A stretch of DNA of 64,000 nucleotides. It comes from Phycisphaerae bacterium. Its GTDB lineage: Bacteria; Planctomycetota; Phycisphaerae; Sedimentisphaerales; Anaerobacaceae. Where the stretch lies: contig DAOWCP010000002.1 of NCBI GenBank assembly GCA_030639495.1, forward strand, positions 10,156-74,155. The letters are read 5' to 3'. The notes under the pieces were generated by a model, which was given only the letters and a program-made list of their open reading frames with translations, was not told the origin of the DNA and searched no databases. The position numbers and the translations under genes were made by a program. Positions 17,821 through 40,393 of the stretch are shown here, one piece after another; the stretch's first letter is position 1, and every line of letters begins with the position of its first letter.

Positions 17821-18079
17821 AATAGTGGGCGAATATTCTATGAAAATGCGAAACCGCCGTCAAATAATGACAGGTACTTTGCGATACGCAGTATTGGGCT
17901 TAGTTGGTTTTTTTGCGGGCTCAGCAATTGTAAAAAGACGCAGATTGATAAAGGAAGGCAAGTGCATTAATCTGGGAATATGCCGGGACTGCAAACTCTA
18001 CGAAAGCTGTAGATTGCCTCCAGCCTTGTCAAAAAAACAATTCTTTATAAAAAAAGACAATGTCAAAAGAAAAAATTAA
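17804..18079 (+). CDS. small single-TM protein with a C-x5-C-x2-C-x5-C cysteine motif; the real start is probably the internal Met near 17840
   Basis: TM helix LRYAVLGLVGFFAGSAIV is followed by KCINLGICRDCKLYESC. Its ends overlap both flanking genes, a pattern consistent with translational coupling inside the operon. Confidence 0.4.
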   Translation: MQRQGEIVGEYSMKMRNRRQIMTGTLRYAVLGLVGFFAGSAIVKRRRLIKEGKCINLGICRDCKLYESCRLPPALSKKQFFIKKDNVKRKN

Positions 18080-24010: not shown

Positions 24011-25565
24011 AATGGTCAAACTTGTAATTGATAATATCAATGTTGAAGTTGATGATGGTGCAACTGTACTCGATGCTGCTCAAAAGCTTGGGATAGAAAT
24101 TCCTACGATGTGCTTTCTCAAAGGCTATGCCGCTTCAACCAGTTGTATGATATGCATTGTAAAAATTGCCGGTATCGAATCGTTTATGCCGGCGTGCGGG
24201 ACAATCGCAACAGACGGGATGGAAGTCGAAACATCTTCTGAAGAAATCCATCAAGCCCGGAAAGTTGCCCTGGAATTGTTGTTAAGCGACCACCTTGGTG
24301 ACTGCATGGGGCCTTGTCAGGTTATCTGCCCGGCGGGTTTGGATATACCACTGATGATCAGGCAGATCAGGGATGGCAAATTAAAAGATGCTATTGTTAC
24401 GGTAAAGCGTGACATCGCGTTACCCGCGGTGTTGGGTAGGATTTGCCCGGCTCCGTGTGAAAACGGATGTAGACGTGCGAAATTTGATCAGCCGGTTTCA
24501 ATTTGTCTGCTGAAACGATATGTGGCGGATGTTGATTTGTTCTCAGATAGGCCTTATCTGCCAGTCTGTGAAGCTGAAAAAGGCAAACGTGTAGCTATTA
24601 TTGGGGCTGGACCTGCGGGTTTGGCTGCTGCGTATTATCTGCTCCAAAAAGGATACGCCTGCACAGTGTATGATGACCACGACAAGCTGGGAGGAATGCT
24701 CAGGTATAGTGATTGTTCAAAAATATTAGACAGTGAGGTGCTGGAAAAGGAAGTTGACCTTATCAAACAACTCGGGGGTGAATTTTTAGGCCAAACTAAA
24801 ATTGATTCTGCCTCATCTCTTGAAAAGTTGCGTCAGGAATTTGATGCCGTTTTTGTGGCTGTAGGAGAATTGCCCGGCAATAACGAATACCTGGGTTTAG
24901 CTATGGGGCAAAAGGGAGTTAAGATAAACAATACGTACCAAACGAATATTCCTGGCGTCTTTGCAGGTGGTGATGTTGTTAGTAAACGAAGGCTTGCGGT
25001 TCGCTCTGTTGCCGATGGTAAGAAAGCAGCTATCGCTATTGATCAGTTTCTATCGGGCGGGGAAGTAATCGGGCCGCAAAAAAAGTTTAATAATCGTATT
25101 GGTAAATTGCTGGACAATGAGATAGATAATTTTATGTTGACGGCGGATAATCCTTCACGTGTATCGCCTTTACGCAAGAGTGAAGGATTTACCGAGAGCC
25201 AAGCTAAACAGGAATCCGCCCGTTGTTTGCATTGTGACTGTCGTAAAACCGATAGCTGTAAGCTGAGGGAATACAGCCGGCAATACCAGGTCAGGCAGAA
25301 CAGGTACAAGGGCAAAAGAAATTTATTTAGCCAACAGATTCAACATCCCTGTATAATTTATGAACCCGGCAAATGTATAAAATGCAACCTCTGCATTCAG
25401 ATAGCGACCGAAGCAAAAGAAAAACTTGGGCTGACGTTCATAGGCAGGGGTTTTGATGTGAAAGTTGCTGTACCATTTGATAAAGCTCTCGCTGAAGGGC
25501 TTAGCCATATTGGCTATAAATGTGTCGAAGCGTGCCCGACATCTGCGTTAGCTTTAAAGGATTAG
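24003..25565 (+). CDS. 2Fe-2S ferredoxin domain fused to a GltD-like FAD/NAD(P)H oxidoreductase with 4Fe-4S clusters (NfnB/SudA/GltD-like)
   Basis: N-terminal plant-type 2Fe-2S fold (CFLKG...C..C). GltD-like Fe-S region CPAGLDIP...CPAPCENGC. Rossmann motif VAIIGAGPAGLAAAYYL. C-terminal CIKCNLC. Confidence 0.75.
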   Translation: MSKMVKLVIDNINVEVDDGATVLDAAQKLGIEIPTMCFLKGYAASTSCMICIVKIAGIESFMPACGTIATDGMEVETSSEEIHQARKVALELLLSDHLGDCMGPCQVICPAGLDIPLMIRQIRDGKLKDAIVTVKRDIALPAVLGRICPAPCENGCRRAKFDQPVSICLLKRYVADVDLFSDRPYLPVCEAEKGKRVAIIGAGPAGLAAAYYLLQKGYACTVYDDHDKLGGMLRYSDCSKILDSEVLEKEVDLIKQLGGEFLGQTKIDSASSLEKLRQEFDAVFVAVGELPGNNEYLGLAMGQKGVKINNTYQTNIPGVFAGGDVVSKRRLAVRSVADGKKAAIAIDQFLSGGEVIGPQKKFNNRIGKLLDNEIDNFMLTADNPSRVSPLRKSEGFTESQAKQESARCLHCDCRKTDSCKLREYSRQYQVRQNRYKGKRNLFSQQIQHPCIIYEPGKCIKCNLCIQIATEAKEKLGLTFIGRGFDVKVAVPFDKALAEGLSHIGYKCVEACPTSALALKD

Positions 25566-25784
25566 CTTAACAACTACCTCCTTTCAAGGTGTTTTTTTGT
25601 AATAAAGCTATATTCTTGATTTTTTTATTGAACCTTATACGTTCAAATTATTATATACATAAGTGTGATAATATAATTTGCGAAACAAACCATCCTATAA
25701 GGCGGTTTAAGCCAAGGTTGGCTTTTCTGGTCAACTTTGATACAATGTTGTGGAAATTTATGTACTGTTTTAAGGAATCACTAT

Positions 25785-28220
25785 ATGAAAACACAGAGTA
25801 AAATCACAAAACGTTTATTGGTTGCGGTATTTTTTATATTAATCGGCTTTTGTAAAGTTTCAGATGCCGCCGACTGGCCTAACTGGCGGGGTCCGAATTA
25901 TGACGGCATATCTGTAGAAAAGGATTGGGATCCTTTAAAGATCAAAGACGGTATGAAACCTTTGTGGAAGGCTTCGATTGGGATTGGTTTTTCAACAATT
26001 TCGGTAAGTGATGGTCGGGCTTATACAATGGGCAACACCGGCGTCAAGGGTGAGGATAAAAGCAAACACAATGACATTACTTTCTGCTTTGACGCTGAGA
26101 CCGGCAAAGAGATGTGGAGGCACACTTATCCTCAGCAGCTGGATCCAAAGTATTACGAGGGAGGCTCATTAGCTACTCCCACAGTTAGCGGCGGCAAAGT
26201 TTATACTATTAGTAAGGATGGAAAGACCTTTTGCCTTGATGCGAAAACCGGCAAGGTGATATGGCAAAAGAATCTGTTGGATGAATTGGGAATCAAGCGT
26301 ACCACATGGGGGCATTCTGGTTCGCCGGTAGTTATCGACAATATGGTTATTTATAGCGCGGGCAGGATGGGGGTTGCTCTTAGTAAAGACAACGGTAGTT
26401 TGATCTGGGAAGGCAGCAAGGAGCGAGGCGGATACGCAACGGCGGTGCCTTTCATGATGGGTAATCAAAAATGTATCGCACTGTTTGGATTCGAAGATAT
26501 TATTGGATTAGTTGCGGCAACGGGAAAGGAGTTGTGGAGATTTCCCTGGAAGACAAAACATGATGTCAATGCCGCCGACCCGATTATTGTCGGCAGTAAG
26601 ATATTTATATCCTCTGGATACGGTACCGGATGCGCGCTGTTGAAAATCGAAAATGAAAATGTCACCGAATTATGGCGCAATAAAAACATGCGTAGTAAAA
26701 TGAATGGTTCTGTTTTTTGGAAAGGCCATATTTACGGCGTTGATGAAGGGGGCGATTTGAGATGTCTGGATATTAAAACAGGTGAGATTGCATGGAGTGA
26801 GAAGGGATTTGGTCAGGGTAGTATTACGATTGCCGACGATAAACTCATCGTTCTGGGTGAAAAGGGTAATTTAGTTATCGCTGAACCCACACCTGACGGC
26901 TATAAGGTTATTTCCCAAGCGAAAATACTTTCGCCCAGATGTTGGAGCGTTCCGGTTCTGGCAAATGGTAGGCTTTATGCCCGTAATGCTGCAGGTGATA
27001 TGGTTTGTTTAGACGTCAGCAAAAAGGCGGCTAAGGCAATTTCGACAGGGAAAAACTGGGCTCAGTGGCGTGGGCCAAACCGTGACGGTAAATCAACTGA
27101 GACAGGACTTTTGAAGGAATGGCCTGAGGGTGGACCAGAACTTTTGTGGTCAGTAGAGGGGTTGGGCGAAGGGTTCTCAACGGTTTCTATTGCAGATGGT
27201 GTTGTTTATACAACGGGAATAATAGATAAGCAGGGAGTACTTTTCGCCTTAGACCTCCAGGGTAAATTAAAGTGGAAGAAAATATATGGTCCTGAATGGA
27301 CAGGGTCGCATTCGGGTACGCGTAGTACGCCAACGGTTGATGGTGACAGGATATATGTTTTCAGCGGCCAGGCCGCTTTGTACTGTCTTGATGCAAAAAC
27401 AGGAGTCGCCAAATGGTCCGTAGATACTCTGGATAAGTTTGGCGGAAAGCTCTTGCGATGGGGTGTGGCGGAATCGGTGTTAATTGACGGCAATAAAGTG
27501 ATCTGTTCACCCGGCGGAGAAGATGCCAGTGTAGTTGCTCTGAATAAAATAACAGGGGAAACAATCTGGACAACTAAAGGCTTAAGCGAAAAAAGTGGTT
27601 TTTGTTCGCCGATCCTTGTTGAGCGTGGCGGGAAAAGGCTTATCGTAACAATGCTGGCTAAATCTGTGGTTGGTATTGATATCGAGACAGGAAAACTCGT
27701 TTGGAGCACACCTGCGAAAACTTCTGTGCGAAGAGGTAGAGGCAGTAATCCCATTACTCCTTTATATCTTGATGGTGAAATCTACACCACCAGCGGATAC
27801 GGCAAAGGCGGCGCAATGTTTGAACTTTCAGCCGACGGCTCAGGTGTTACCACTAAATGGAGTGATAAAATTCTTGATGTCCATCATGGCGGTGTTGTGG
27901 TTGTCGATGAGTACATTTACGGGTCAAGACACAATGGCAACTGGGTGTGTCTGGATTGGAACAGCGGCGAGGTGAAATATGAAAACGACAAAAAGGGTAA
28001 GGGCTCAATAACTACAGCCGAAGGTATGTTGTATTGCTATGATGAAAAAAAAGGCACGGTCAAGCTGGTGAAGGCGACTCCTGAAAAATTTGATATTGTC
28101 AGCTCTTTTAAGGTTCCAATGGGAACAGATGAATATTGGGCACATCCGGTGATTTGTGACGGAAAATTGTATATCCGCCATGGTGAAGCTTTGATGGCTT
28201 ATGATATAAAAGCAAAATAA
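25785..28220 (+). CDS. secreted tandem (double) PQQ-like beta-propeller protein
   Basis: Signal peptide MKTQSKITKRLLVAVFFILIGFCKVSDA. Two propeller units, each opening with a W-x-x-W-R-G-P-N-x-D-G motif (WPNWRGPNYDG and WAQWRGPNRDG). The TTG start at 25737 in the ORF track was rejected in favour of the ATG at 25785. Confidence 0.8.
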   Translation: MKTQSKITKRLLVAVFFILIGFCKVSDAADWPNWRGPNYDGISVEKDWDPLKIKDGMKPLWKASIGIGFSTISVSDGRAYTMGNTGVKGEDKSKHNDITFCFDAETGKEMWRHTYPQQLDPKYYEGGSLATPTVSGGKVYTISKDGKTFCLDAKTGKVIWQKNLLDELGIKRTTWGHSGSPVVIDNMVIYSAGRMGVALSKDNGSLIWEGSKERGGYATAVPFMMGNQKCIALFGFEDIIGLVAATGKELWRFPWKTKHDVNAADPIIVGSKIFISSGYGTGCALLKIENENVTELWRNKNMRSKMNGSVFWKGHIYGVDEGGDLRCLDIKTGEIAWSEKGFGQGSITIADDKLIVLGEKGNLVIAEPTPDGYKVISQAKILSPRCWSVPVLANGRLYARNAAGDMVCLDVSKKAAKAISTGKNWAQWRGPNRDGKSTETGLLKEWPEGGPELLWSVEGLGEGFSTVSIADGVVYTTGIIDKQGVLFALDLQGKLKWKKIYGPEWTGSHSGTRSTPTVDGDRIYVFSGQAALYCLDAKTGVAKWSVDTLDKFGGKLLRWGVAESVLIDGNKVICSPGGEDASVVALNKITGETIWTTKGLSEKSGFCSPILVERGGKRLIVTMLAKSVVGIDIETGKLVWSTPAKTSVRRGRGSNPITPLYLDGEIYTTSGYGKGGAMFELSADGSGVTTKWSDKILDVHHGGVVVVDEYIYGSRHNGNWVCLDWNSGEVKYENDKKGKGSITTAEGMLYCYDEKKGTVKLVKATPEKFDIVSSFKVPMGTDEYWAHPVICDGKLYIRHGEALMAYDIKAK

Positions 28221-28221
28221 A

Positions 28222-29049
28222 TTGAAAAGGCTGAAAATGCTTCTTTTTTGTAATTGCGGTTATTCAGACATAATTGACTCCGAGCTGAAAGATCATATAC
28301 TAAATAAGCTGGTAACCACAAAGCTTGATTTCGAAGTGGTACAGGATTTATGTGGACTATCGGCGAAAAAAGACACTAAGCTTAAATCCTGGAGACAGGC
28401 TGAGTCACTAACAATTGTCGCTTGTTACCGGCGGACGTTAAAATGGCTCTTTAACTATGCAGACGCTGCGCTGGATCCTGAAAAAACCCAATTTCTCAAC
28501 ATGAGGACAAGTTCTGCTGAGGAAATTCTCTCATCCTTATTTAACGAAGAAACTCCTTTCGGGGATAAGCAGGAAATTCAACTTGAAGAAAAAGGAGACT
28601 GGATACCATGGTTTCCGGTAATTGACTACGACCGATGTGAAAATTGCAAACAGTGCCTCAACTTTTGTCTTTTTGGTGTTTACGAACTTTCTCAAGACGA
28701 GCAGGTTCAGGTAACCAATCCTACCGGCTGTAAGACAAACTGTCCAGCTTGCGCAAGACTTTGCCCTTGTAATGCTATTATATTTCCAAAATACGATGAC
28801 AGTCCGATCAATGGCGATGAGGTTGGTGACAGCAAAAAAACAGATATGAATCCTGATGAAATTTACGAAATACTTAAACGGCGAAGCAAAACTAAAAAAC
28901 GATTTGAAAAAGACAGAGCGGACCAGCAGGAAATAGATTTAACAAAACTAAAAGATCAACTGGGAATTCCTTCGGAGGTTTTAGAATCTCTAAGGCCGGC
29001 AGAAGTGACTAAGTTGCAAAAAAAGTCGGAGAAGAAGAACCGTGAGTAA
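28222..29049 (+). CDS. 4Fe-4S ferredoxin-domain protein (likely a dedicated electron donor)
   Basis: CENCKQCLNFC and CKTNCPACARLCPCNAI cluster motifs. Stop and start overlap with the next gene. Confidence 0.65.
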   Translation: MKRLKMLLFCNCGYSDIIDSELKDHILNKLVTTKLDFEVVQDLCGLSAKKDTKLKSWRQAESLTIVACYRRTLKWLFNYADAALDPEKTQFLNMRTSSAEEILSSLFNEETPFGDKQEIQLEEKGDWIPWFPVIDYDRCENCKQCLNFCLFGVYELSQDEQVQVTNPTGCKTNCPACARLCPCNAIIFPKYDDSPINGDEVGDSKKTDMNPDEIYEILKRRSKTKKRFEKDRADQQEIDLTKLKDQLGIPSEVLESLRPAEVTKLQKKSEKKNRE

Positions 29050-30562
29050 ACAACGACTGAGGCCATTAGTAGTTCTTGTCGCCGACAGGACGCTTAGTGC
29101 TGACTATAAAATATTGTTTGAAGGCATCTTTGCCACTATGCAGACTACGCATGTCCCCGAAGTCGCGATGAGATACTTTGTTTCGCCGCGAGTTGCTGTA
29201 GATAGTGACGGGCGGGCAAGGACAGCACCTCTGGGATTGCGCCGAGTTGAATCTGCGCTTCTTGAATATACTGACTTGAAGGCTGAAGATATTGTTTGTA
29301 CGACTCCTGAAGCTTTGCCGGGAGTGTTGGGGCCTTGGGTAAAAATAGTTGGTTTCAGTTCCAGCGATCCTTTGGGAAAGGGGATGAGCAATACTACGAC
29401 GGATAATTTCTGGCCTGGTGAGCTTTATACGAGGTACTGGACGCGGAATACGCTTGAGAAGATTCTTGATGCCAAGAGAAAGCATCACTTTAAAGTAGTT
29501 GCAGGTGGTGCGGGTGCATGGCAGCTTGCTCGTTATGATGATAAGGTTGCGAATGAGTGTATTGATGTGATTTTTGAGGGTTATTTTGAGGAACTTGGCC
29601 CTGGGCTTTTTACGGACATCTTAAACGATAAAACCGTGGAGACACATATCTGTGAAAAAGGCTCATCGGTTGAAAAAGTCAGGCCTATAAAACGTGCTTC
29701 GATGCTTGGTATTATAGAGCTTTCCAGGGGTTGCGGGAGAGGGTGTAAGTTCTGTACGATGGCTAGTAAGAAAATGGAGCATCTACCGGCGAGTACGATT
29801 TTGGCTGATTTGGAGACGAATGTTTCTAATGGTGTCACTTCGGTTGTTAGCGGCAGTGAGGATTTTTTCAGGTATGGCGCGAAAGGGTTAAAGCCTGAGT
29901 TTGATAAGCTGCAAAAACTCCTTGAGCAGATGCGGGAAATTGAAAATCTTTCTTTTATGCAGATAGATCATGCCAATATTACAAGCGTGATGCAGATGAC
30001 AGATGAGCAATTGATCGAAACCAGAAGGCTTCTTTCGTGGAACAAGAAAACTGATTTCCTGTGGGTTAATATGGGCGTTGAAAGTGCTAATGGGCATTTG
30101 GTTTTTGCTAACTGTCCGGGTAAGATATCGCCATTTGAAGCGGGTGATTGGGAAGATCTGGTACGTCAGACGGCTGAGCGTATGAAGAGGACGGGGTTCT
30201 TTTCTGTGTTTAGTTTGATTTTGGGCCTGCCTGGTGAGACTGCTGATGATGTCCAGCGAACTCTTAAGCTTGCTAAGTATCTTGGGACGCAAAATGCGGT
30301 GATCTTCCCGGTTTTTTATGAGCCTTTGAGTGAAGACCAGAAGCCTTTTAAGATTGATGATATGCGGCTCGATCATCTTGAGTTGTATAGCACGTGTTAT
30401 GAGATTAATTTCAAAATGGTTCCACGGCTGTATTGGGACAATCAGCGAGCGGGTGGTGTGCCTTGGATTAAACGAGCAGCTATACGCGTCCTGGGCAAAA
30501 CGGAAGTTGCAGCATGGAGAAAAAGTTTCAGGAAAATTAGAAAGCAACTTCAAAGCAGCTAA
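29042..30562 (+). CDS. radical SAM enzyme with an N-terminal B12-binding-like domain (class B radical SAM; candidate isoprenoid or hopanoid tailoring enzyme of the HpnP/HpnR/HpnJ type)
   Basis: CxxxCxxC motif in ELSRGCGRGCKFCTM. Elp3-like LGLPGET. N-terminal Rossmann-like B12-binding region. The gene is embedded between a ferredoxin and terpenoid genes. Confidence 0.8.
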   Translation: MSKQRLRPLVVLVADRTLSADYKILFEGIFATMQTTHVPEVAMRYFVSPRVAVDSDGRARTAPLGLRRVESALLEYTDLKAEDIVCTTPEALPGVLGPWVKIVGFSSSDPLGKGMSNTTTDNFWPGELYTRYWTRNTLEKILDAKRKHHFKVVAGGAGAWQLARYDDKVANECIDVIFEGYFEELGPGLFTDILNDKTVETHICEKGSSVEKVRPIKRASMLGIIELSRGCGRGCKFCTMASKKMEHLPASTILADLETNVSNGVTSVVSGSEDFFRYGAKGLKPEFDKLQKLLEQMREIENLSFMQIDHANITSVMQMTDEQLIETRRLLSWNKKTDFLWVNMGVESANGHLVFANCPGKISPFEAGDWEDLVRQTAERMKRTGFFSVFSLILGLPGETADDVQRTLKLAKYLGTQNAVIFPVFYEPLSEDQKPFKIDDMRLDHLELYSTCYEINFKMVPRLYWDNQRAGGVPWIKRAAIRVLGKTEVAAWRKSFRKIRKQLQSS

Positions 30563-30581
30563 GCTGTTGGAAAAATTAAAA

Positions 30582-32255
30582 ATGTCTAACGATAGTAAAA
30601 ATAAAACTGAATTAAAGCCAGGGCAGGAAAAAGTGCCGCAATCAAAAGATATGCGGGATAAGCTTGTCGGCTTTGCCGGGGAATATGTTCGCGAACATAA
30701 ACTTATTGCTCCTTTGCCGTTAGGGCAATTGCAAAAGCATTGTTTGGCGATAATTAAAGAGCGGGGCGTAAGTGAGTCTTATATTGATTTTCTTGCGGTT
30801 GTTGTGAATAATCAGTTGTGGCGTGAAGCTGTAGCAGCCACTCCTTACGAGAAACGGCTGCTTTTACTACCAAAATGTTTGCGTGACAATGAAAATTGCC
30901 CGGCAGAGTTTGATCAGTTGGGTCTGGCTTGTGAAAATTGTGGTCGCTGCGTGATTGGCGATATAAAATCACAGGCTGAAGAGCTCGGGCTTATGGTTCT
31001 GGTTGCTGAGGGTTCACCTATCGTAATGTCACTTATACAGACGGGCAAGATCGAAGCGGTTATCGGGGTTAGCTGTCTTAGTGTGCTTGAAAAGACGTTC
31101 CCTTATATTGAAGCTGGGGCTGTGCCGTCTCTGGCAATCCCACTATTATACGATGGTTGTGTCAATACCAACGTAGATGTCGATTGGGTGCTCGATGCTA
31201 TTTATGAAAAAAGCAATGACGGTAAAAGTCGGCTTGACTTGCGGGATTTACGTGACAAAGTAAACAGTTTGTTTGAAGAGGATTCTTTGAAAGCATTTTT
31301 GGCAATAGGTGACAGTCAAACTGAAGCCTTGGCGTTGCGGTTTCTTTTAGGTGATGGTAAAAGATGGCGTCCCTTGCTGGTTGCGTATGCACACAAGGCG
31401 ATCGCATTTGAAACTGATAACGACCTTTGCAAAGACCTTTGTAAAACTGCAATTGCTGTAGAATGTTTCCATAAGGCCTCTTTGATACATGATGACATAG
31501 AAGACGGAGACCTTTTGAGATATGGCAAAAGGACGATGCATGCTGAATTTGGGATTCCAATTGCGCTGAATGTTGGTGATTTTTTGCTTGGAGAAGGTTA
31601 CCGTCTTCTGGCGGAACTTGAACTGTCACAAGACATAAAAGTAGAAATGTTAAATGTCTCAGCCCAAGGACACAGGGAGCTTTGCCTTGGACAGGGCAAG
31701 GAGCTTGAATGGGTTAGAAGCCCAAAGCCTTTGTCAATTGCCAAGGTGATCGACATCTTCCAGAAAAAAACTTCTCCTGCGTTTGAAGTAGCCTTAAAAC
31801 TGGGCATGTTATCAACGGGCAAAAAAACGGGGTTAGATGCACTTATAAAAAAATACTCAAATGCCCTTGGGATTGCTTACCAGATTAAAGACGACATAAA
31901 CGATTTTGATTCGAACACAGATTTTGATGATATTACCAGGAGTCGACCTTGTGTATTGCTGGCGATTGCCTGGGAAAAAGCTCAAACCCAGGATAGGCAA
32001 CTACTTGAGTCGCTTTGGCAAAACCAGCAGCAATCTGACGCTTTGAGAGAATCGGTTGCAGAAATGGTTGCCAGGCTGAGAATTAAAACAATTGCGATGA
32101 AACTGATGGAGACTTATAAAGACAAGGCAATCTCTTCTCTTGAGTCTATGGAAGATATCTCCTTTAAAGGTTTGCTGAGGAGAATCGTTAGTAAAATATT
32201 CAATGAAATCGATATTATGGGTTGCTGCGATGACTATAAGACTGGAAATGATTGA
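30582..32255 (+). CDS. fusion of an N-terminal cysteine-motif domain (CENCGRC; DUF116-like) with a trans-polyprenyl diphosphate synthase
   Basis: Two aspartate-rich motifs, IHDDIEDGD (FARM) and KDDINDF (SARM). Start chosen at the first ATG after the upstream stop. The ORF-track start at 30330 would overlap the radical SAM gene by 230 nt. Confidence 0.75.
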   Translation: MSNDSKNKTELKPGQEKVPQSKDMRDKLVGFAGEYVREHKLIAPLPLGQLQKHCLAIIKERGVSESYIDFLAVVVNNQLWREAVAATPYEKRLLLLPKCLRDNENCPAEFDQLGLACENCGRCVIGDIKSQAEELGLMVLVAEGSPIVMSLIQTGKIEAVIGVSCLSVLEKTFPYIEAGAVPSLAIPLLYDGCVNTNVDVDWVLDAIYEKSNDGKSRLDLRDLRDKVNSLFEEDSLKAFLAIGDSQTEALALRFLLGDGKRWRPLLVAYAHKAIAFETDNDLCKDLCKTAIAVECFHKASLIHDDIEDGDLLRYGKRTMHAEFGIPIALNVGDFLLGEGYRLLAELELSQDIKVEMLNVSAQGHRELCLGQGKELEWVRSPKPLSIAKVIDIFQKKTSPAFEVALKLGMLSTGKKTGLDALIKKYSNALGIAYQIKDDINDFDSNTDFDDITRSRPCVLLAIAWEKAQTQDRQLLESLWQNQQQSDALRESVAEMVARLRIKTIAMKLMETYKDKAISSLESMEDISFKGLLRRIVSKIFNEIDIMGCCDDYKTGND

Positions 32256-33114
32256 GGCTGTTAGTCGTTCGAAGGCGGTGATGGGTGATTCGGTTTCTTC
32301 GGTCGTTAACTTTCTAACAGCAAGCATTAATCCTGATGGCGGTTTTAAAGGACGCGACAAGCAAAGCGATTTATACTATACCGTTTTCGGGCTTGAAGCT
32401 TTGCTCGCCTTAGGTGGAACTTTTCCGCGAAATAAAATCTTTAATTTTGTTCAAGGATTTATTGATAAGGACACGGTAGATTTGGTTCATTTAGCAGCAG
32501 CTATACGTTGTTGTGTGAATCTTTCGGAAGGTGATATTGAAAAAAGCCTTCGCGAAAAGTTCATAAAAGACCTTGAGCGGTTTCGCAGTAAAGATGGTGG
32601 ATTTGCTAATGAAATGGGCGTTGAACATGGTACAGCTTATGGTTGCTTTTTTGCATTGATTGCTTACCAGGACTTACAGACAGATATGCCGGCTCATACC
32701 AAGGTAGCGCAATGCATTGGGGCCTTAGCGATTCCTGATGGTGGGTTTACTAACAATGCCAAAATCAAAACTGCCTCGACTAACGCAACTGCAGCGGCTA
32801 TGATAGTCCTAAACCATCTGCATCAATCATCGGATAAAAAAAACGCAGACTGGCTATTTAATCAATGTACTTCAGATGGTGGCTTTGTCGCAATGCCGAT
32901 GGCTCCGATACCTGATTTGCTTTCAACTGCTACTGCTCTGCATGGGTTGGCCGTTACAGGGTTTGAAATTGATACCATCAAGGAGAGGTGTTTGGATTTT
33001 GTTGACAGCCTCTGGTGCGGCAAAGGTGGTTTTTACGGCAATTGGACGGATGATATTGTTGATTGTGAATACACCTATTATGGCTTACTGGCTTTGGGGC
33101 ATCTTGGGAAATGA
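32248..33114 (+). CDS. prenyltransferase / squalene-oxidase-repeat (alpha/alpha-toroid) protein, ~290 aa
   Basis: Repeated DGGF/GG(F/W) motifs (NPDGGFKG, SKDGGFAN, IPDGGFTN, TSDGGFVA, GKGGFYG). Start chosen at the ATGATTGA overlap with the upstream stop; alternative starts at 32203 or 32230 are possible. Confidence 0.6.
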   Translation: MIEAVSRSKAVMGDSVSSVVNFLTASINPDGGFKGRDKQSDLYYTVFGLEALLALGGTFPRNKIFNFVQGFIDKDTVDLVHLAAAIRCCVNLSEGDIEKSLREKFIKDLERFRSKDGGFANEMGVEHGTAYGCFFALIAYQDLQTDMPAHTKVAQCIGALAIPDGGFTNNAKIKTASTNATAAAMIVLNHLHQSSDKKNADWLFNQCTSDGGFVAMPMAPIPDLLSTATALHGLAVTGFEIDTIKERCLDFVDSLWCGKGGFYGNWTDDIVDCEYTYYGLLALGHLGK

Positions 33115-34994
33115 TTATAGATATTAACGAAGAGACTCTTGGTAAAAGTATCCAGGGACTGGAAAAACGTTTGCTTGAATCCAGAACGCCACATGGGTTT
33201 TGGCAGGGACGTTTGTCAAGCAGCGCTCTTTCTACTGCTACTGCGGTTTTCGCTTTGACAATGGTTGATGAAAAAAAATACCAAACGCAAATTCAGCGAG
33301 GACTAAAATGGCTTCGTGATAACTCGAACAGCGATGGGGGCTGGGGTGACACACCTCTAAGCATTAGCAATATCAGCACAACAATGCTCTGCTGGGCAGC
33401 TTTTAAACAGACCGAGATCGCACCTGAATATGAAAAAACAGTAACTGATACAGAGAAATGGCTTATAAAAAATGCCGGCAGTCTCGAACCAGAGCAGTTG
33501 CTAAAGACTGTCAATGCAAAGTATGGCAAAGACAGAACTTTCTCTTCGCCTATTCTGATGATGTGCGCTCTGGCGGGTATGTTAAACGGGGCTGAAGATA
33601 TTTGGAAATTGCTTAAGCCTTTGCCGTTTGAATTGGCAATTGTGCCGCATAAGTTTTATAAGTTTCTGCGATTGCCGGTAGTAAGTTATGCATTACCTGC
33701 ATTGATCGCCATTGGTCAGCTTCAATTTCACCGTCGCAAACCTGCAAATCCGATTACCAGACTTCTAAGATATTTAACACAGGACAAAACTTATAACATA
33801 CTAAAAAAAATTCAGCCGGAAAATGGCGGCTTCCTCGAAGCTGCACCATTAACAAGCTTTGTAGTTATAAGCCTGGCTGCTACAGGAAAAAAAGACAGCA
33901 TCGTCACAAAAAGGGGAATCGGGTTTCTCCTGGATTTGGTAAGGGAAGATGGCAGCTGGCCTATTGATACGAATCTTGCCACATGGGTAACAACTTTATC
34001 TATCAATGCGCTTGCCGGGAATCCTGATTTTAAGAATATTCTCCCAACTAAGGAACGCAAAGATTTACAGCAATGGCTGCTCGTTCAACAACATCGAAAA
34101 GTACACCCTTACACCAACGCCGCTCCCGGGGGTTGGGCATGGACCGATGCGCCGGGGGCAGTTCCTGATGCTGATGATACTGCTGGTGTGCTTATTGCAC
34201 TTTACAATCTTGATTTGGTTGATGACAATGTGACCGAAGCCGTTAGACTAGCTATCGAATGGCTTTTGGACATACAGAATAAAGACGGCGGAATACCGAC
34301 TTTTTGTAAAGGATGGAATAAATTACCTTTCGACCGCAGTGCTGCTGATATCACCGCCCATGTAATAACTGCTATGAAACTATGGTTAGGTTTTTTGCCG
34401 GATTCTATGCAAAGATTGGTAAGAGCTGCAATTAAAAAAGCTCTTGGCTACCTCCAGCAAACACAACAAGGCAATGGTTCGTGGCTTCCCTTATGGTTTG
34501 GCAATCAGTTTGAATCTCAGCAGCAAAATCCTGTTTATGGAACAGCTAAAGTTCTAATATCTTTGTCCCAATTCATCAACACTGACAGCAATATTTCCGA
34601 AAGGATGTTTTCTGATTCTGTTAAATGGCTTCTGGAGGCACAAAATCATGATGGTGGATGGGGGCCGAGCAAATCAATAATATCATCTATAGAAGAGACA
34701 TCGCTCGCTGTAGATGCTCTTGTTAGCCTTATAAACCAGTTAGCCCAGCGCTCAAAAAAGGCGTGCGATTTGTTTCACAATCTTGAGCAAATGCGATCGG
34801 CGGTCTTAACAGGAACAGCCTGGCTCATAAAAAGAACTGACAAAAGTTTTACTGCTGCTCCGATTGGTTTATATTTTGCCCGACTTTGGTATTTTGAAGA
34901 GTTATATCCTGTTATTTTTGCATTATCTGCTATGAAAAAAATGAAATTAGAAAGCTACTTCAGAAACGTAATATCCCTTAGAAACTCAAAATGA
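33111..34994 (+). CDS. shc: squalene-hopene cyclase-like class II triterpene cyclase
   Basis: DxDDTA catalytic motif in VPDADDTAGV. Multiple QW/DGGW repeats (SDGGWGD, KDGGIP, HDGGWGP). 627 aa. ATGA start/stop overlap with the upstream gene. Confidence 0.85.
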   Translation: MIIDINEETLGKSIQGLEKRLLESRTPHGFWQGRLSSSALSTATAVFALTMVDEKKYQTQIQRGLKWLRDNSNSDGGWGDTPLSISNISTTMLCWAAFKQTEIAPEYEKTVTDTEKWLIKNAGSLEPEQLLKTVNAKYGKDRTFSSPILMMCALAGMLNGAEDIWKLLKPLPFELAIVPHKFYKFLRLPVVSYALPALIAIGQLQFHRRKPANPITRLLRYLTQDKTYNILKKIQPENGGFLEAAPLTSFVVISLAATGKKDSIVTKRGIGFLLDLVREDGSWPIDTNLATWVTTLSINALAGNPDFKNILPTKERKDLQQWLLVQQHRKVHPYTNAAPGGWAWTDAPGAVPDADDTAGVLIALYNLDLVDDNVTEAVRLAIEWLLDIQNKDGGIPTFCKGWNKLPFDRSAADITAHVITAMKLWLGFLPDSMQRLVRAAIKKALGYLQQTQQGNGSWLPLWFGNQFESQQQNPVYGTAKVLISLSQFINTDSNISERMFSDSVKWLLEAQNHDGGWGPSKSIISSIEETSLAVDALVSLINQLAQRSKKACDLFHNLEQMRSAVLTGTAWLIKRTDKSFTAAPIGLYFARLWYFEELYPVIFALSAMKKMKLESYFRNVISLRNSK

Positions 34995-35049: not shown

Positions 35050-35133
35050 TGGGCCAGGCTGGATTCGAACCAGCGTAAGCTTACGCTAATGGGTTTACAG
35101 CCCATTCCCTTTAGCCACTCGGGCACTGACCCC
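35050..35133 (-). tRNA. tRNA-Tyr (anticodon GTA) with long variable arm; CCA not encoded
   Basis: The reverse complement folds as acceptor GGGTCAG/CTGGCCC, D-arm CCCGAGTGGCTAAAGGGA, anticodon loop CTGTAAA (GUA), long variable arm and T-loop GGTTCGAATCC. It is close to E. coli tRNA-Tyr. Confidence 0.9.
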
Positions 35134-38404: not shown

Positions 38405-40393
38405 ATGAAAAGGTTTTTATTCTTTACTACTGTTTTGATTATGATACAAAGCAGCTTCGTTGTCGGGGCAGAGAAGCTTACTTATATTGATCTTATAGGC
38501 AAACTTACGGATCTTGAGTATCTGGCTACATTGCCGCAGCCAGGACAAAAATCTCAGATGGCTTCGAGCTATGACCGCGCGAGTAAGTATGATGCTGTCA
38601 ATGACAAGTATGTGAACTGGACAGCCAATGCTGACGGGTGGAATTTTGTTAGTAAAGACAATGGTGAATTGGTAATGGCTGACATTAAGGGGCCTGGGGT
38701 TATTTGGAGAATATGGTCTGCGCAGGCAAAAGAGGGACACGTCAAATTTTATTTTGATGGCAGTGATATTCCAGCTATTGATATGCCTTGGGAAGATTAT
38801 TTTAACAGAACAGTTCCACCATTTGACAGGAGCGAACTTGTTTACACCAGCGCTAAAGGCTTAAATATTTACCTGCCGATACCGTTCCGGAAATCATGTA
38901 AGATAGTTGCCCAGGGCAACTGGGGATTGTATTATCACATTAACTACACTACATATCCGCAGGAAACGGAGCTGACGACATTTAAAATGTCACTTAGCGA
39001 AGAAGAATCTATAGCTTTAGATAACGCTAATGAAATTCTTGCAGCTGGCGGTCTCGATCCTTCGCCGAAGCGTAAATCTCAAAAGACGATCAAGAAAACA
39101 ATTACAATTGCCCCGGGCCAAACGGAGAGTATATTGGACCTTAAAGGCAAGTACGCAATAACTGCTTTGAAAGTGAAAATTGAAAAGCCTAATAGAGAGA
39201 TTCTTCGCCAGCTGGCGTTGAGCATGTACTGGGATGGCGAAAAAAGCCCTTCGGTATGGTCGCCGATAGGTGATTTTTTCGGCTCAGCTCCGGGAGTTAA
39301 TCTCTACAAATCTTTGCCGCTGGGTATGACAGCTGACGGATTTTACAGCTACTGGTATATGCCTTTTAAAAAGTCAGCACTATTGCAGATAACCAACGAC
39401 GGCAAAGAAAGCAGAAACGTTACTTTTGCTGTGACGTATGCAAAATTGGATAAGCCTATAAACGATCTTGGTAGATTTCATGCTAAATGGCACCGAGACG
39501 CTTTTTTGCCTAAAGAAAAAGAACGTTGGATCGACTGGACGATATTAAAGACCAAAGGCAGAGGAAGATTTTGCGGGACATTGCTCAATGTGTGGAATCC
39601 CAGAGGCTCATGGTGGGGCGAAGGGGATGAGAAATTCTTTGTTGACGATGAGAATTTTCCATCTACATTCGGCACAGGCACTGAAGATTATTTTGGTTAT
39701 GCATGGGGCAACGGCACTTTGTTTGACCAGGCTTATAATAACCAGACTGTCTGCACTTCCAACCGTGGACATATTTCGGTGAGCAGATGGCACATCAGTG
39801 ACAACGTGCCTTTCCAGGGGGCTTTTGAGGGTTATATTGAAAAGTATTACAAAGAAGAATTGTGGGACACTCGTTATGATGCAGTTGCATACTGGTATCT
39901 GGATGAATCTAAAAGTGATGACTATCATATTGTCTCTCTGGATGATCGACTTGGTTACTGGACCGAGCCTAAAGGGATTATTGAAGGCGAAACTCTTAAG
40001 GTTATTTCAAAAACTGTCGGCAGTGTGGGTGAGCAAAAATTAAGCGAAGCCTGGAGTGGCGGGGCACATTTGTTCTGGGCAGGCGTTAAGGTCGGAGCGA
40101 AGCTGGATGTTGCTTTTGACATTAAAAAGAAAGGCAAATATCGTTTGAAAACCCAATTGACCAAAGCCACTAATTATGCGATGGTTCAGTTGTATATTGA
40201 TGGTAAGAAGATTGGCAAGCCTATTGATCTTTATCTTGGATATGTATACCTGACACCAGTTATGATCCTTGGTGAGTTTGATTTTACTGCTGGTGAGCAT
40301 ACCATGACGATTGAGATTGTGGGAGTTAATAAAAAAGCTGGCGAGCATAATGCCGCTGGAATTGATTATCTACAGATCGAAAAGTTGAAATAG
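38405..40393 (+). CDS. secreted DUF2961/GH172-like protein with a C-terminal beta-sandwich (putative carbohydrate-binding) domain
   Basis: Signal peptide. The motif region GDEKFFVDDE...GTGTEDYFGYAWG is reminiscent of DUF2961. Family assignment is tentative. Confidence 0.3.
   Translation: MKRFLFFTTVLIMIQSSFVVGAEKLTYIDLIGKLTDLEYLATLPQPGQKSQMASSYDRASKYDAVNDKYVNWTANADGWNFVSKDNGELVMADIKGPGVIWRIWSAQAKEGHVKFYFDGSDIPAIDMPWEDYFNRTVPPFDRSELVYTSAKGLNIYLPIPFRKSCKIVAQGNWGLYYHINYTTYPQETELTTFKMSLSEEESIALDNANEILAAGGLDPSPKRKSQKTIKKTITIAPGQTESILDLKGKYAITALKVKIEKPNREILRQLALSMYWDGEKSPSVWSPIGDFFGSAPGVNLYKSLPLGMTADGFYSYWYMPFKKSALLQITNDGKESRNVTFAVTYAKLDKPINDLGRFHAKWHRDAFLPKEKERWIDWTILKTKGRGRFCGTLLNVWNPRGSWWGEGDEKFFVDDENFPSTFGTGTEDYFGYAWGNGTLFDQAYNNQTVCTSNRGHISVSRWHISDNVPFQGAFEGYIEKYYKEELWDTRYDAVAYWYLDESKSDDYHIVSLDDRLGYWTEPKGIIEGETLKVISKTVGSVGEQKLSEAWSGGAHLFWAGVKVGAKLDVAFDIKKKGKYRLKTQLTKATNYAMVQLYIDGKKIGKPIDLYLGYVYLTPVMILGEFDFTAGEHTMTIEIVGVNKKAGEHNAAGIDYLQIEKLK

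What the first reader, a model, noticed from the sequence alone, without database searches (positions are those of the whole stretch)
28222..34994. Non-canonical terpenoid block: ferredoxin, B12-radical-SAM, Cys-domain-polyprenyl synthase fusion, a small alpha/alpha-toroid protein and an SHC-like cyclase
The cyclase has the DxDDTA motif (class II, protonation-initiated). Instead of squalene-synthase genes (hpnCDE), the cyclase follows a trans-polyprenyl diphosphate synthase fused to an N-terminal cysteine-motif domain (CENCGRC), plus a separate ~290-aa prenyltransferase-repeat protein. This arrangement recalls sesquarterpene (C35) pathways, where a polyprenyl synthase feeds an SHC homologue, rather than classical hopanoid loci. 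The adjacent B12-radical-SAM enzyme with its own ferredoxin suggests C-methylation or another radical tailoring step of HpnP/HpnR/HpnJ type. Methylated cyclic isoprenoids are used as biomarkers, which makes the product identity worth establishing.
Basis: partly seen in the sequence, partly recalled or inferred. Interest (0 to 1): 0.75.

Follow-up and report, generated by a model that had tools for sequence, protein, structure and literature searches.

The report
Non-squalene cyclic terpenoid operon, PVC bacteria
Five tightly packed genes in a sediment planctomycete pair a dedicated polyprenyl-chain synthase with a divergent squalene-hopene-cyclase relative from a recognised but uncharacterised enzyme clade, so the locus probably makes a still-unidentified cyclic isoprenoid lipid rather than a hopanoid.

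Summary
The five genes are real and sit at the stated coordinates. The fusion gene starts at 30582, not 30330.

**What they encode**
- A ferredoxin-like protein: a 4-Cys N-domain plus two [4Fe-4S] motifs.
- A radical SAM enzyme with a flavodoxin-like N-domain.
- A DUF116 (seven invariant Cys) fused to a trans-polyprenyl diphosphate synthase.
- A prenyltransferase-beta-like alpha/alpha toroid that lacks the zinc-ligand Cys.
- A 627-aa class II cyclase with DADDTA.

**Conservation**
- The same cassette recurs in the same order with different flanks in Sedimentisphaerales.
- All components recur, rearranged, in Verrucomicrobiota and Planctomycetia. At least 552 species genomes encode the fusion.
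- In those lineages the radical SAM is replaced by an unrelated SPASM-type one.

**Identity**
- The cyclase fails every curated SHC, OSC and tetrahymanol-synthase cut-off.
- It fits the published "SHC-like/Unk" clade, whose substrate is unknown.
- The radical SAM matches no hopanoid-tailoring family.
- No squalene-synthesis gene lies in the 64 kb window.

**Verdict**
A 2020 paper had already hinted at it.
- The HpnP/R/J-type methylation idea is not supported.
- Product and accessory chemistry remain inferred.
- This is a new variant of a known kind, of moderately high interest.

The parts
28222..29049 (+). Ferredoxin-like electron-transfer protein. N-terminal 4-Cys domain (C10, C12, C44, C68), then two [4Fe-4S] motifs (nt 28636-28668 and 28729-28767), then a Lys/Glu-rich tail. 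The start may be the ATG at 28237.
   Evidence: Fer4_10, Fer4_6 and Fer4_7 hits at residues 130-190; motifs; N-domain Cys conserved in 49 sequences. It is split into two genes in Verrucomicrobia loci. Present in 9/9 S-type and 22/23 V-type loci that have full flanks.
29042..30562 (+). Radical SAM enzyme of 506 aa. Flavodoxin-like N-domain (about residues 1-205) plus a radical SAM barrel with CGRGCKFC (nt 29732-29755). It has class-B-like architecture; its cofactor is unknown.
   Evidence: PF04055 E 1.3e-12. TIGR04013 71 bits, below cut-off. AF2 pLDDT 93. Foldseek best hits are MgmA, MiaB/RimO, TsrM, AprD4 and CysS with TM about 0.5. Only one invariant Cys (C86) in the N-domain.
30582..32255 (+). 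DUF116-polyprenyl diphosphate synthase fusion of 557 aa. DUF116 spans nt 30747-31199 with seven invariant Cys, including CENCGRC at nt 30930-30950. The synthase spans nt 31350-32060, with FARM DDIED at 31491-31505 and SARM DDIND at 31890-31904. Invariant signature ECFHKASL(I/V)HDDIED...RYG. Invariant C549 near the C-terminus.
32203..33114 (+). Single-domain alpha/alpha toroid protein, prenyltransferase-beta-like (303-aa ORF; likely 294 aa from the ATG at 32230). Conserved acidic cluster DDxxDxE at nt 33049-33069. Lacks the Zn-ligand Cys.
   Evidence: PF00432 60 bits. Profile against PDB: FTase beta 3e-10, RabGGTase beta 2e-9, drimenyl-PP synthase about 1e-6, SHC about 3e-5. Zn-ligand Cys replaced in both alignment registers. 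Invariant residues. Stop overlaps the cyclase start (ATGA).
33111..34994 (+). Class II (protonation-type) beta-gamma terpenoid cyclase of the uncharacterised 'SHC-like/Unk' clade, 627 aa. DADDTA at nt 34167-34184. Equivalents of SHC H451 (TAH, 34353-34361) and Y495 (YGT, 34536-34544) are present.
   Evidence: PF13243 146 bits and PF13249 52 bits. Fails TIGR01507, TIGR01787, TIGR03463 and TIGR04277 cut-offs. SHC E 2e-15. Motif conservation in 30 sequences. More than 8000 homologues; the named ones are Planctomycetota, Phycisphaerae or Sedimentisphaerales.
25737..28220 (+). Possible sixth linked gene, with weak support: a signal-peptide-bearing double PQQ_2/BamB-like beta-propeller that ends 1 nt before the ferredoxin gene.
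   Evidence: PF13360 200 bits. A homologous propeller gene lies immediately upstream and co-directional in 9 other S-type loci and in L086, but not in L001 or L002.

Best explanation
This is a conserved PVC-superphylum operon for a cyclic isoprenoid lipid that is made without squalene.

**Proposed pathway**
1. The synthase domain of the fusion protein elongates an all-trans polyprenyl diphosphate. Its length is predicted at roughly C25, with C20-C30 not excluded.
2. That chain, directly or after processing of its diphosphate end by the fused Cys-rich (probably Fe-S) DUF116 domain, is handed to the translationally coupled toroid protein and the cyclase.
3. The cyclase starts ring formation by protonating a terminal C=C with its DxDDTA acid, giving a polycyclic 'regular' (head-to-tail) polyprenoid rather than a hopanoid.
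4. The ferredoxin-like protein supplies low-potential electrons to the radical SAM enzyme and/or DUF116, which carry out one reductive or radical step on the isoprenoid.

**Shown**
- Gene content, motifs and folds.
- Gene fusion and three-way conserved linkage.
- Failure of canonical-family tests.

**Inferred**
- Chain length and the order of steps.
- The roles of DUF116, the toroid and the radical SAM.
- The product.
For: - **Order and linkage.** Same order with different flanks in Sedimentisphaerales. All components recur in other orders in Verrucomicrobiota and Planctomycetia.
- **DUF116 and the synthase.** They are fused here and are adjacent separate genes in Pirellulales, a Rosetta-stone link.
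- **Synthase.** FARM and SARM are intact. The invariant residues are A(-5), S(-4) and F(-8), where the P. horikoshii GGPP synthase has Y(-5) and I(-8).
- **Cyclase.** DADDTA plus the equivalents of SHC H451, W489 and Y495 are conserved. It fails the SHC, OSC and tetrahymanol-synthase cut-offs.
- **Window.** No squalene-synthesis or hpn genes.
- **Literature.** The clade is recognised, sister to head-to-tail epoxy-polyprenyl cyclases (Lon15, C40; AtoE, C25), and its substrate is unknown (PMC12324236). Genomic context was said to suggest a non-squalene precursor (PMC7306690).
- **Redox module.** Seven invariant Cys in DUF116, including CxxCxxC. Ferredoxin is present in 31/32 full-flank loci. In V-type loci a CobW GTPase and a cysteine-desulfurase-like gene accompany the cassette.
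Against: - No biochemical data exist for any component.
- Chain length rests on a rule of thumb from archaeal GGPP synthase mutants, recalled from memory. Type III GGPP synthases also carry A/S at -5/-4 yet make C20.
- In Verrucomicrobia only 5 of 23 full-flank loci have the cyclase within 8 kb. The ferredoxin/radical SAM/DUF116-synthase module may therefore have a role that does not need cyclisation.
- The DUF116 fold gave no functional analogue, and its metal could be Zn rather than Fe-S.
- Placement in the published 'SHC-like' clade is inferred from taxonomy, length and divergence, not from a tree with reference sequences.
Confidence: 0.55

Rival explanations
1. Meroterpenoid or prenyl-transfer pathway. 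The toroid protein is a true prenyltransferase that attaches the polyprenyl chain to a non-isoprenoid acceptor (an aromatic acid, quinone precursor, peptide or protein). The cyclase then cyclises the prenyl tail, as MstE or Lon15 do.
For: - The toroid profile is closer to protein prenyltransferase beta subunits (E 3e-10) than to cyclase beta domains.
- It has an invariant acidic cluster, DDxxDxE.
- The sister clade includes the meroterpenoid cyclase Lon15 (PMC12324236).
- Pirellulales loci carry a conserved unknown 176-188-aa protein after the synthase, with a faint UTRA (chorismate-lyase-fold) hint at E 0.09.
Against: - The Zn-ligand Cys that activates the acceptor thiol in protein prenyltransferases is absent.
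- No alpha-subunit gene and no UbiA- or ABBA-type aromatic prenyltransferase is in the cassette.
- No acceptor-biosynthesis gene is conserved across the three arrangements.
- The UTRA hint is not significant, and the PDB search found nothing.
Confidence: 0.15
2. The DUF116-synthase fusion plus ferredoxin and radical SAM is a new reductive, squalene-synthase-independent route to a hydrocarbon substrate. One option is Fe-S-mediated reductive removal of the diphosphate. Another is reductive coupling of two allylic diphosphates held by the dimeric synthase. The cyclase is only a downstream consumer.
For: - DUF116 is always fused or adjacent to the synthase.
- It has seven invariant Cys with a CxxCxxC motif.
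- Ferredoxin is nearly always present.
- A cysteine-desulfurase-like gene and a CobW GTPase sit in V-type loci.
- A stand-alone DUF116 sits beside ispH, SHC, hpnH and a polyprenyl synthase in a Bipolaricaulota isolate, with no squalene synthase listed in that cluster.
- Some anaerobic SHC-bearing groups lack all known squalene synthases (PMC7306690).
- SHC-type cyclases normally take diphosphate-free substrates (general knowledge).
Against: - The argument is purely by association.
- No structural analogue was found for DUF116.
- Pirellulales have the DUF116-synthase-cyclase trio although, according to the literature, planctomycetes also have HpnCDE.
- No precedent exists for such chemistry in a domain of about 150 aa.
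Confidence: 0.15
3. This is an ordinary hopanoid locus. The cyclase is a divergent SHC acting on squalene made elsewhere in the genome. The radical SAM is an HpnP/HpnR/HpnJ-like tailoring enzyme. The synthase is a housekeeping FPP or GGPP synthase.
For: - The DxDDTA motif and SQHop_cyclase domains are present.
- JGI annotates homologues under the SHC orthologue name.
- The rest of the genome could not be searched for hpnCDE or sqs.
Against: - Hopene-cyclase model: 112.7 bits against a cut-off of 431.1. SHC in PDB only at E 2e-15.
- No Hpn-family hit for the radical SAM, and it is replaced by a non-homologous radical SAM in other lineages.
- The synthase lacks the FPPS chain-length signature and is physically fused to DUF116 and linked to the cyclase in three arrangements.
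- No hpn genes in 64 kb.
Confidence: 0.05
4. The ferredoxin, radical SAM and (elsewhere) CobW and cysteine desulfurase are a maturation machinery. They would build a special metal centre on DUF116 or another component, rather than acting on the isoprenoid.
For: - The combination of GTPase, radical SAM, ferredoxin and cysteine-desulfurase-like gene in V-type loci resembles metallocofactor assembly sets (the analogy to HydEFG and NifB is from general knowledge).
- Two unrelated radical SAM types occupy the same slot.
Against: - S-type loci, including this window, lack CobW and the desulfurase.
- The two Pirellulales loci L084 and L085 show none of these genes next to the trio.
- There is no direct evidence.
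Confidence: 0.1

Closest known systems
'SHC-like' / 'Unk' clade of class II terpenoid cyclases (Santana-Molina et al. 2020, PMC7306690; triterpenoid-cyclase phylogeny preprint 2025, PMC12324236)
   Same: - Beta-gamma didomain cyclase of 550-700 aa.
- PVC-centred distribution.
- Catalytic Asp motif retained.
- Far from SHC and OSC.
- Context suggests a non-squalene precursor.
   Different: Nothing contradicts membership, but placement was not tested on a tree. The published main texts do not describe the DUF116 fusion, the toroid partner, the ferredoxin or the two alternative radical SAM modules documented here. The supplement was not available.
Sesquarterpene (sporulenol) pathway of Bacillus: HepS/HepT heptaprenyl-PP synthase, YtpB, SqhC
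   Same: A dedicated long-chain trans-prenyl synthase supplies a head-to-tail substrate to an SHC homologue instead of squalene.
   Different: - No YtpB-type class I synthase.
- The cyclase is not in the SqhC group, which is sister to SHC.
- Extra DUF116, toroid, ferredoxin and radical SAM.
- Predicted shorter chain.
Epoxy-polyprenyl cyclase pathways of actinomycetes (Lon15 in longestin, C40; AtoE in atolypenes, C25)
   Same: According to PMC12324236 this is the sister clade. These are head-to-tail polyprenyl substrates made by a cluster-encoded polyprenyl synthase.
   Different: - Those enzymes use epoxidised substrates, which need O2.
- This cassette sits in anaerobe-type Sedimentisphaerales and keeps the alkene-protonating DxDDTA motif.
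- No epoxidase is in the cassette.
Hopanoid pathway (HpnCDE or Sqs, SHC, HpnH, HpnP, HpnR, HpnJ)
   Same: A class II cyclase with DxDDTA together with a radical SAM enzyme and a membrane-lipid-like product. HpnH is a precedent for a radical SAM acting on the alkene of a cyclised terpenoid (general knowledge).
   Different: - The cyclase fails the SHC model.
- The radical SAM matches no Hpn family.
- No squalene genes nearby.
- The dedicated synthase is not of FPP type.
Protein prenyltransferase beta subunits (FTase, RabGGTase)
   Same: Best sequence-profile match of the 294/303-aa toroid protein. Same PF00432 repeats.
   Different: - The zinc-ligand Cys is replaced.
- No alpha subunit gene.
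- Bacterial, and cyclase-coupled.

Membership tests
Squalene-hopene cyclase (TIGR01507 equivalog) | Whole-protein score above the curated cut-off | tested here: not met
   112.7 bits against a cut-off of 431.1. The general squalene/oxidosqualene cyclase model also fails (121.5 against 322.7), as do OSC (96.8 against 851) and tetrahymanol synthase (67.6 against 500).
Squalene-hopene cyclase (TIGR01507 equivalog) | DxDDTA general-acid motif with the assisting His and Tyr | tested here: met
   DADDTA at residues 353-358 aligns with SHC DVDDTA. TAH and YGT align with SHC H451 and Y495. Conserved in 30 family members.
Squalene-hopene cyclase (TIGR01507 equivalog) | Genomic association with squalene synthesis (HpnCDE or Sqs) or other hpn genes | tested here: not met
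   No SQS_PSY, amine-oxidase or Hpn family among the ORFs of at least 180 aa scanned across the 64-kb window. The rest of the genome was not searchable.
'SHC-like/Unk' cyclase clade (PMC7306690, PMC12324236) | Beta-gamma cyclase of 550-700 aa, PVC/FCB/Acidobacteriota distribution, divergent from SHC and OSC, catalytic residues kept | tested here: met
   627 aa. The homologues that carry a source name are Planctomycetota, Phycisphaerae or Sedimentisphaerales. Cassette relatives occur in Verrucomicrobiota and Planctomycetia. Motifs conserved.
'SHC-like/Unk' cyclase clade (PMC7306690, PMC12324236) | Phylogenetic placement with named clade members (for example the Gemmata obscuriglobus homologue), sister to Lon15 and AtoE | not tested
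The supplement of PMC7306690 is not held.
Hopanoid-tailoring radical SAM enzymes (HpnP, HpnR, HpnJ, HpnH) | Match to a curated Hpn family model | tested here: not met
   13 NCBIfam hits at E <= 0.01, none of them a hopanoid family. The best is TIGR04013 at 71 bits against a cut-off of 251. I did not verify which Hpn models the library holds.
Class B (cobalamin-dependent) radical SAM enzymes | N-terminal Rossmann-type cobalamin-binding domain plus a CxxxCxxC radical SAM core | tested here: inconclusive
   The core motif is present. The model's best structural matches include the B12 enzymes MgmA, TsrM and CysS, but equally MiaB/RimO and the B12-free AprD4, all at TM about 0.5. No Pfam B12-binding hit. 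Cobalamin binding cannot be read from sequence.
Methylthiotransferases (MiaB/RimO) | Three-Cys auxiliary [4Fe-4S] site in the N-terminal domain | tested here: not met
   Only one invariant Cys (C86) before the radical SAM motif in 52 sequences. MTTase models score 25-42 bits against cut-offs above 250.
trans-Polyprenyl diphosphate synthases (PF00348) | Family score above cut-off with intact FARM (DDxxD) and SARM (DDxxD) | tested here: met
   150.3 bits against a cut-off of 27. DDIED and DDIND are invariant.
Farnesyl diphosphate synthase | Bulky aromatic residue at position -5 (and -4) before FARM; equivalog score | tested here: not met
   Ala at -5 and Ser at -4 are invariant in 81 sequences. 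FPPsyn model: 99.9 bits against a cut-off of 275.
Protein prenyltransferase beta subunit | Zn2+ ligand triad Asp/Cys/His | tested here: not met
   The Cys position is Leu (RabGGTase register) or Glu (FTase register). The His position is Tyr in both.
Protein prenyltransferase beta subunit | PF00432 alpha/alpha toroid repeats | tested here: met
   60.1 bits against a cut-off of 26.5. Profile against FTase beta, E 3e-10.
DUF116 (PF01976) | Family score above cut-off; conserved Cys pattern | tested here: met
   126.6 bits against a cut-off of 25. C99, C106, C117, C120, C123, C165 and C193 are invariant in fused and stand-alone members.
Sesquarterpene pathway (HepST-YtpB-SqhC) | YtpB-type synthase converting the prenyl diphosphate to a hydrocarbon before cyclisation | tested here: not met
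   No such gene in the cassette or the window. The heptaprenyl synthase model scores 88.5 bits against a cut-off of 456.

The most novel reading that the evidence does not exclude
The DUF116-synthase fusion, with its ferredoxin and radical SAM partners, is a previously unknown Fe-S/radical route that turns a regular polyprenyl diphosphate into the substrate of the 'SHC-like' cyclases. The products would be polycyclic regular polyprenoids made anaerobically by abundant sediment PVC bacteria. That would make them a biological source for 'orphan' petroleum biomarkers such as the tricyclic terpanes, for which a bacterial tricyclohexaprenol-type precursor has long been postulated but never found (PMC9247107).
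Probability: 0.2. Interest if true: 0.9.

Novelty: new variant of a known kind. Interest (0 to 1): 0.62.

Why it matters
**An open question becomes testable.** The substrate and product of the 'SHC-like/Unk' cyclase clade are explicitly listed as unknown. The 2025 phylogeny preprint says that knowing them would constrain scenarios for the evolution of triterpenoid cyclisation. This locus gives a compact, testable gene set: synthase-DUF116, toroid, cyclase, ferredoxin and radical SAM.

**The accessory genes are conserved.** They recur across Planctomycetota and Verrucomicrobiota, which narrows the experiments needed.

**Annotation surveys may be misled.** Homologues are annotated under the SHC orthologue name. 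Surveys that use that annotation as a hopanoid marker may therefore miscount PVC anaerobes as hopanoid producers.

**Possible biomarker source.** If the products are cyclised regular polyprenoids, they are candidates for orphan sedimentary biomarkers.

**First functional lead for DUF116.** DUF116 has no assigned function. Its obligate pairing with a polyprenyl synthase is a first lead.

Tried and rejected
- **Exact look-up of the window cyclase.** Not on record. A 99%-identical protein gave the matching contig.
- **Literature searches.** Searches for DUF116, PF01976, and combinations of SHC-like, radical SAM, polyprenyl and Planctomycetes found no characterisation of this cassette. The supplement of PMC7306690 that describes the genomic context is not held.
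- **Taxonomy of distant DUF116 clusters.** Most of the ten short representatives looked up carried no name, and two belong to clusters that also hold ~530-aa members, so they are probably fragments of PVC fusions.
- **Radical SAM comparisons.** The window radical SAM shows no detectable similarity to the Verrucomicrobia one. I therefore rejected the idea that they are orthologues. I also rejected MTTase identity, because the N-domain Cys triad is missing.
- **Promoter and terminator scan.** Counts equal the shuffled expectation, so it is uninformative.
- **Pirellulales 176-188-aa accessory protein.** No Pfam or PDB relative. The chorismate-lyase idea is left as an unsupported hint.
- **Neighbour clustering.** All-vs-all clustering of neighbours was blurred by antisense shadow ORFs. 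It was used only to spot the cysteine-desulfurase-like and propeller neighbours.
- **Tes/GDGT-MAS-like identity of the radical SAM.** Considered, but that structure was not among the top 50 fold matches listed.

Full report
**Observation**

The region 28222-34994 holds five co-directional ORFs on the + strand. Pfam and NCBIfam scans and motif mapping give the following.

- **28222-29049, ferredoxin-like protein.** It has two [4Fe-4S] motifs, CENCKQCLNFC and CKTNCPACARLCP. It also has an N-terminal domain with four conserved Cys.
- **29042-30562, radical SAM enzyme, 506 aa.** The cluster motif is CGRGCKFC.
- **DUF116 (PF01976, 126.6 bits) fused to a polyprenyl diphosphate synthase (PF00348, 150.3 bits).** It carries CENCGRC, FARM DDIED and SARM DDIND.
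- **32203-33114, PF00432 alpha/alpha toroid protein.**
- **33111-34994, cyclase, 627 aa.** It has SQHop_cyclase_N and SQHop_cyclase_C domains and DADDTA.

The mechanical ORF for the fusion starts at 30330, inside the radical SAM gene. The real start is the ATG at 30582. Orthologues align from there, and a 99%-identical contig calls a 557-aa product. That contig also aa for the toroid and 270 aa for the ferredoxin.

The genes overlap by 8 nt and 4 nt or are 19 nt apart. A tRNA-Tyr gene on the opposite strand follows the cyclase.

**Origin and conservation**

- The cyclase has more than 8000 homologues. The named ones are Planctomycetota, Phycisphaerae or Sedimentisphaerales.
- The same five genes in the same order, but with unrelated flanks, occur in two long contigs.
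The best 80 are Sedimentisphaerales/Phycisphaerae, many Verrucomicrobiota (Limisphaerales, Pedosphaera-like) and some Planctomycetia.

Searching the ORFs of these loci with the window proteins shows three arrangements.

- **S-type (this window).** Order: ferredoxin, radical SAM, fusion, toroid, cyclase. Among loci with at least 4.5 kb on both sides, 9/9 have the ferredoxin, 9/9 the toroid and 8/9 the cyclase.
- **V-type.** Order: CobW-like GTPase, split ferredoxin, sometimes a 176-aa unknown, a different radical SAM, fusion, toroid. Of 23 full-flank loci, 22 have the ferredoxin, 14 the toroid and 5 the cyclase. A divergently transcribed cysteine-desulfurase-like gene occurs in 11 loci.
- **Pirellulales arrangement.** Order: cyclase, stand-alone DUF116, separate polyprenyl synthase, then a conserved unknown 176-188-aa protein.

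Two further Planctomycetia loci contain the ferredoxin, the V-type radical SAM (621 bits to the Verrucomicrobia enzyme), cyclase, DUF116, synthase and toroid in yet other orders; one of them (L088) also has CobW.

So the whole component set is one conserved functional ensemble. The tightest core is DUF116 plus the synthase, which are either fused or adjacent.

**The cyclase**

- It fails every curated equivalog or subfamily cut-off:

| Model | Score (bits) | Cut-off (bits) |
|---|---|---|
| Hopene cyclase | 112.7 | 431.1 |
| Squalene/oxidosqualene cyclases | 121.5 | 322.7 |
| OSC | 96.8 | 851 |
| Tetrahymanol synthase | 67.6 | 500 |

- Against solved structures it reaches only E 2e-15 to A. 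acidocaldarius SHC. Bacterial drimenyl-PP and ent-copalyl-PP synthases match at E 1e-4 to 1e-5.
- The catalytic apparatus is nonetheless kept. DADDTA aligns with SHC DVDDTA. The equivalents of H451 (TAH), W489 and Y495 (YGT) are conserved in 30 family members from several phyla. The Pirellulales versions have D[AG]DDTP.

This fits the published 'SHC-like' group of Santana-Molina et al. 2020. They wrote that the planctomycete members alone keep critical catalytic residues and that their genomic context suggests precursors other than squalene (PMC7306690).

It also fits the 'Unk' clade of a 2025 preprint. That clade is found in PVC, FCB, Spirochaetota and Acidobacteriota. [quoted passage not shown] Its function and structure are undetermined, and the SHC-type dimer surface shows an elevated substitution rate on its stem (PMC12324236).

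I could not place the window protein on a tree with reference sequences, so clade membership is a well-founded inference rather than a test.

**The synthase**

- FARM and SARM are intact.
- The best solved relative is P. horikoshii GGPP synthase (E 1.6e-25). FPP, hexaprenyl and octaprenyl synthases follow at similar scores, so there is no clear subfamily.
- The signature E-C-F-H-K-A-S-L-[IV]-H-DDIED...R-Y-G is invariant in 81 fusion sequences. Apart from C to T, it is also kept in the separate Pirellulales synthases.
- Position -5 before FARM is Ala, where the GGPP synthase has Tyr and FPP synthases have an aromatic residue. Position -8 is Phe, where the GGPP synthase has Ile.
- By the established chain-length rule for these enzymes, a bulky residue on helix D forms the floor of the elongation pocket and one helical turn corresponds to about one isoprene unit. 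I recall this from the Ohnuma/Nishino mutagenesis work and did not check it here. The rule predicts a product one unit longer than GGPP, about C25.
- Type III GGPP synthases also have Ala/Ser at -5/-4, so C20-C30 cannot be excluded.
- The second Arg of the usual RRG motif is Tyr throughout the family, which is unexplained.

**DUF116**

- The family is small. There are 941 clusters (50% identity) at E <= 1e-3 among 1.84 billion representatives, and most of the best hits are 500-580 aa, meaning fusions.
- Seven Cys are invariant in fused and stand-alone members: C99, C106, C117, C120, C123, C165 and C193. They include a ferredoxin-like CxxCxxC.
- The only literature context I found is a Bipolaricaulota isolate. 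There a stand-alone DUF116 gene lies beside ispH, SHC, hpnH and a polyprenyl synthase.
- I infer a metal centre, probably Fe-S, that acts on or near the diphosphate end of the synthase product. This is an inference from association only.

**The radical SAM**

- The AF2 model is confident (pLDDT 93).
- Its nearest folds are the cobalamin-dependent methylases MgmA, TsrM and CysS. Equally close are the methylthiotransferases MiaB, RimO and MtaB and the B12-free dehydratase AprD4, all at TM about 0.5.
- The N-domain has one invariant Cys (C86), so it lacks the methylthiotransferase auxiliary cluster.
- No hopanoid-tailoring or BchE family appears among its NCBIfam hits.
- 'B12-dependent' is therefore plausible but unproven, and HpnP/R/J affiliation is not supported.
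- In Verrucomicrobiota and Planctomycetia its slot is held by a NirJ/AhbD/SPASM-like radical SAM with no detectable similarity.
- If the two enzymes do the same job, that job is unlikely to be cobalamin-dependent methylation.

**The toroid**

- Its profile matches protein farnesyltransferase beta (E 3e-10) and RabGGTase beta (2e-9) better than cyclase beta domains (about 1e-6 to 3e-5).
- The zinc-ligand Cys is replaced by Leu or Glu, depending on alignment register, and the His by Tyr.
- An acidic cluster, DDxxDxE, is conserved.
- Its stop codon overlaps the cyclase start. I propose that it is a prenyl-chain-binding partner of the cyclase. This could relate to the altered dimer surface reported for the clade, but that is speculative.

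**Context**

No squalene synthase, HpnC/D/E or other hpn gene is present among the ORFs of at least 180 aa scanned across the window. The surroundings are housekeeping and polysaccharide-degradation genes, plus several PQQ-like beta-propellers and an NADH-linked Fe-S flavoprotein module.

**Interpretation**

The best-supported reading (confidence about 0.55) is a squalene-independent pathway.

1. The dedicated synthase makes a regular all-trans polyprenyl chain.
2. DUF116 and the toroid process or hand over that chain.
3. The DxDDTA cyclase cyclises it.
4. The ferredoxin and radical SAM carry out one reductive or radical step.

The rivals are:

- a meroterpenoid or prenyl-transfer route (0.15);
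- a new Fe-S reductive route to a hydrocarbon substrate (0.15);
- a cofactor-maturation role for the redox genes (0.10);
- an ordinary hopanoid locus (0.05).

The low frequency of an adjacent cyclase in V-type loci is the main caveat for the cyclase-centred view.

**Novelty and value**

The cyclase clade and the idea of a non-squalene precursor are already published.

What this analysis adds:
- the defined five-gene cassette;
- the obligate DUF116-synthase pairing;
- the conserved ferredoxin and toroid partners;
- the displacement of one radical SAM type by another;
- the invariant chain-length signature.

The function remains unknown, and the locus offers a compact experimental entry to an acknowledged open question. 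If the products are cyclised regular polyprenoids, they would be candidates for orphan biomarkers such as tricyclic terpanes, whose sources are unknown (PMC9247107).

Noticed in passing
window 25737-28220 (+); also 9279-10484, 15314-16717, 19932-21656: An 827-aa signal-peptide double PQQ_2/BamB-like beta-propeller ends 1 nt before the ferredoxin gene. A homologous propeller gene lies directly upstream of the cassette in 9 other S-type loci and in L086, but not in L001 or L002. The window holds three more such propeller genes.
   Followed up: partly
V-type loci, e.g. L016:2230-3414 (-), L023:1971-3254 (-); L037:3525-4682 (+): A class-V aminotransferase (cysteine-desulfurase-like, Aminotran_5 E 1.7e-83) is divergently transcribed from a CobW-like GTPase at the head of the Verrucomicrobia-type cassette in 11 loci. 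This suggests dedicated metal or sulfur handling.
   Followed up: partly
L084:11891-12457, L085:11900-12430, L087:8922-9461: A conserved 176-188-aa protein follows the polyprenyl synthase in Pirellulales loci. It has no Pfam or PDB relative, apart from a non-significant UTRA hint at E 0.09.
   Followed up: partly
window 35050-35132 (-) and 54883-54955 (+): A tRNA-Tyr(GTA) gene lies on the opposite strand 56 nt after the cyclase stop and marks the 3' end of the operon. A tRNA-Met lies further downstream.
   Followed up: yes
window 21656-24010 and 24003-25565 (+); 18060-19948 (+): A NuoE-NuoF-ferredoxin fusion and a GltD-like Fe-S flavoprotein (an NADH-linked, bifurcating-type module) plus polyferredoxins lie upstream. 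The first two are also upstream in the 99%-identical contig L086. They are not conserved next to the cassette in other loci.
   Followed up: partly
window 32220-32234 (fusion residues 547-551, GCCDD): The C-terminus of the fusion protein carries a [W/C]-C motif. C549 is invariant in 81 fusion sequences, and the motif is absent from the separate Pirellulales synthases. Its role is unknown.
   Followed up: partly
window 31518-31526 (fusion residues 313-315, RYG): The RRG motif that follows FARM in trans-prenyl synthases is R-Y-G in every family member, fused or not. This is an unexplained substitution at a diphosphate-binding position.
   Followed up: partly
window 42854-47826 (-), 38405-40393 (+): An FGE-sulfatase-domain protein, a sulfatase with a Laminin_G_3 domain, a DUF2961 protein and a fucose-isomerase-like gene are present. 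This gene content is typical of sulfated-polysaccharide degradation in Sedimentisphaerales-like anaerobes.
   Followed up: no
homologues of window 33111-34994: JGI annotates many of these divergent cyclases as 'squalene-hopene/tetraprenyl-beta-curcumene cyclase'. Surveys that use that orthologue name as a hopanoid marker would therefore count these organisms.
   Followed up: no
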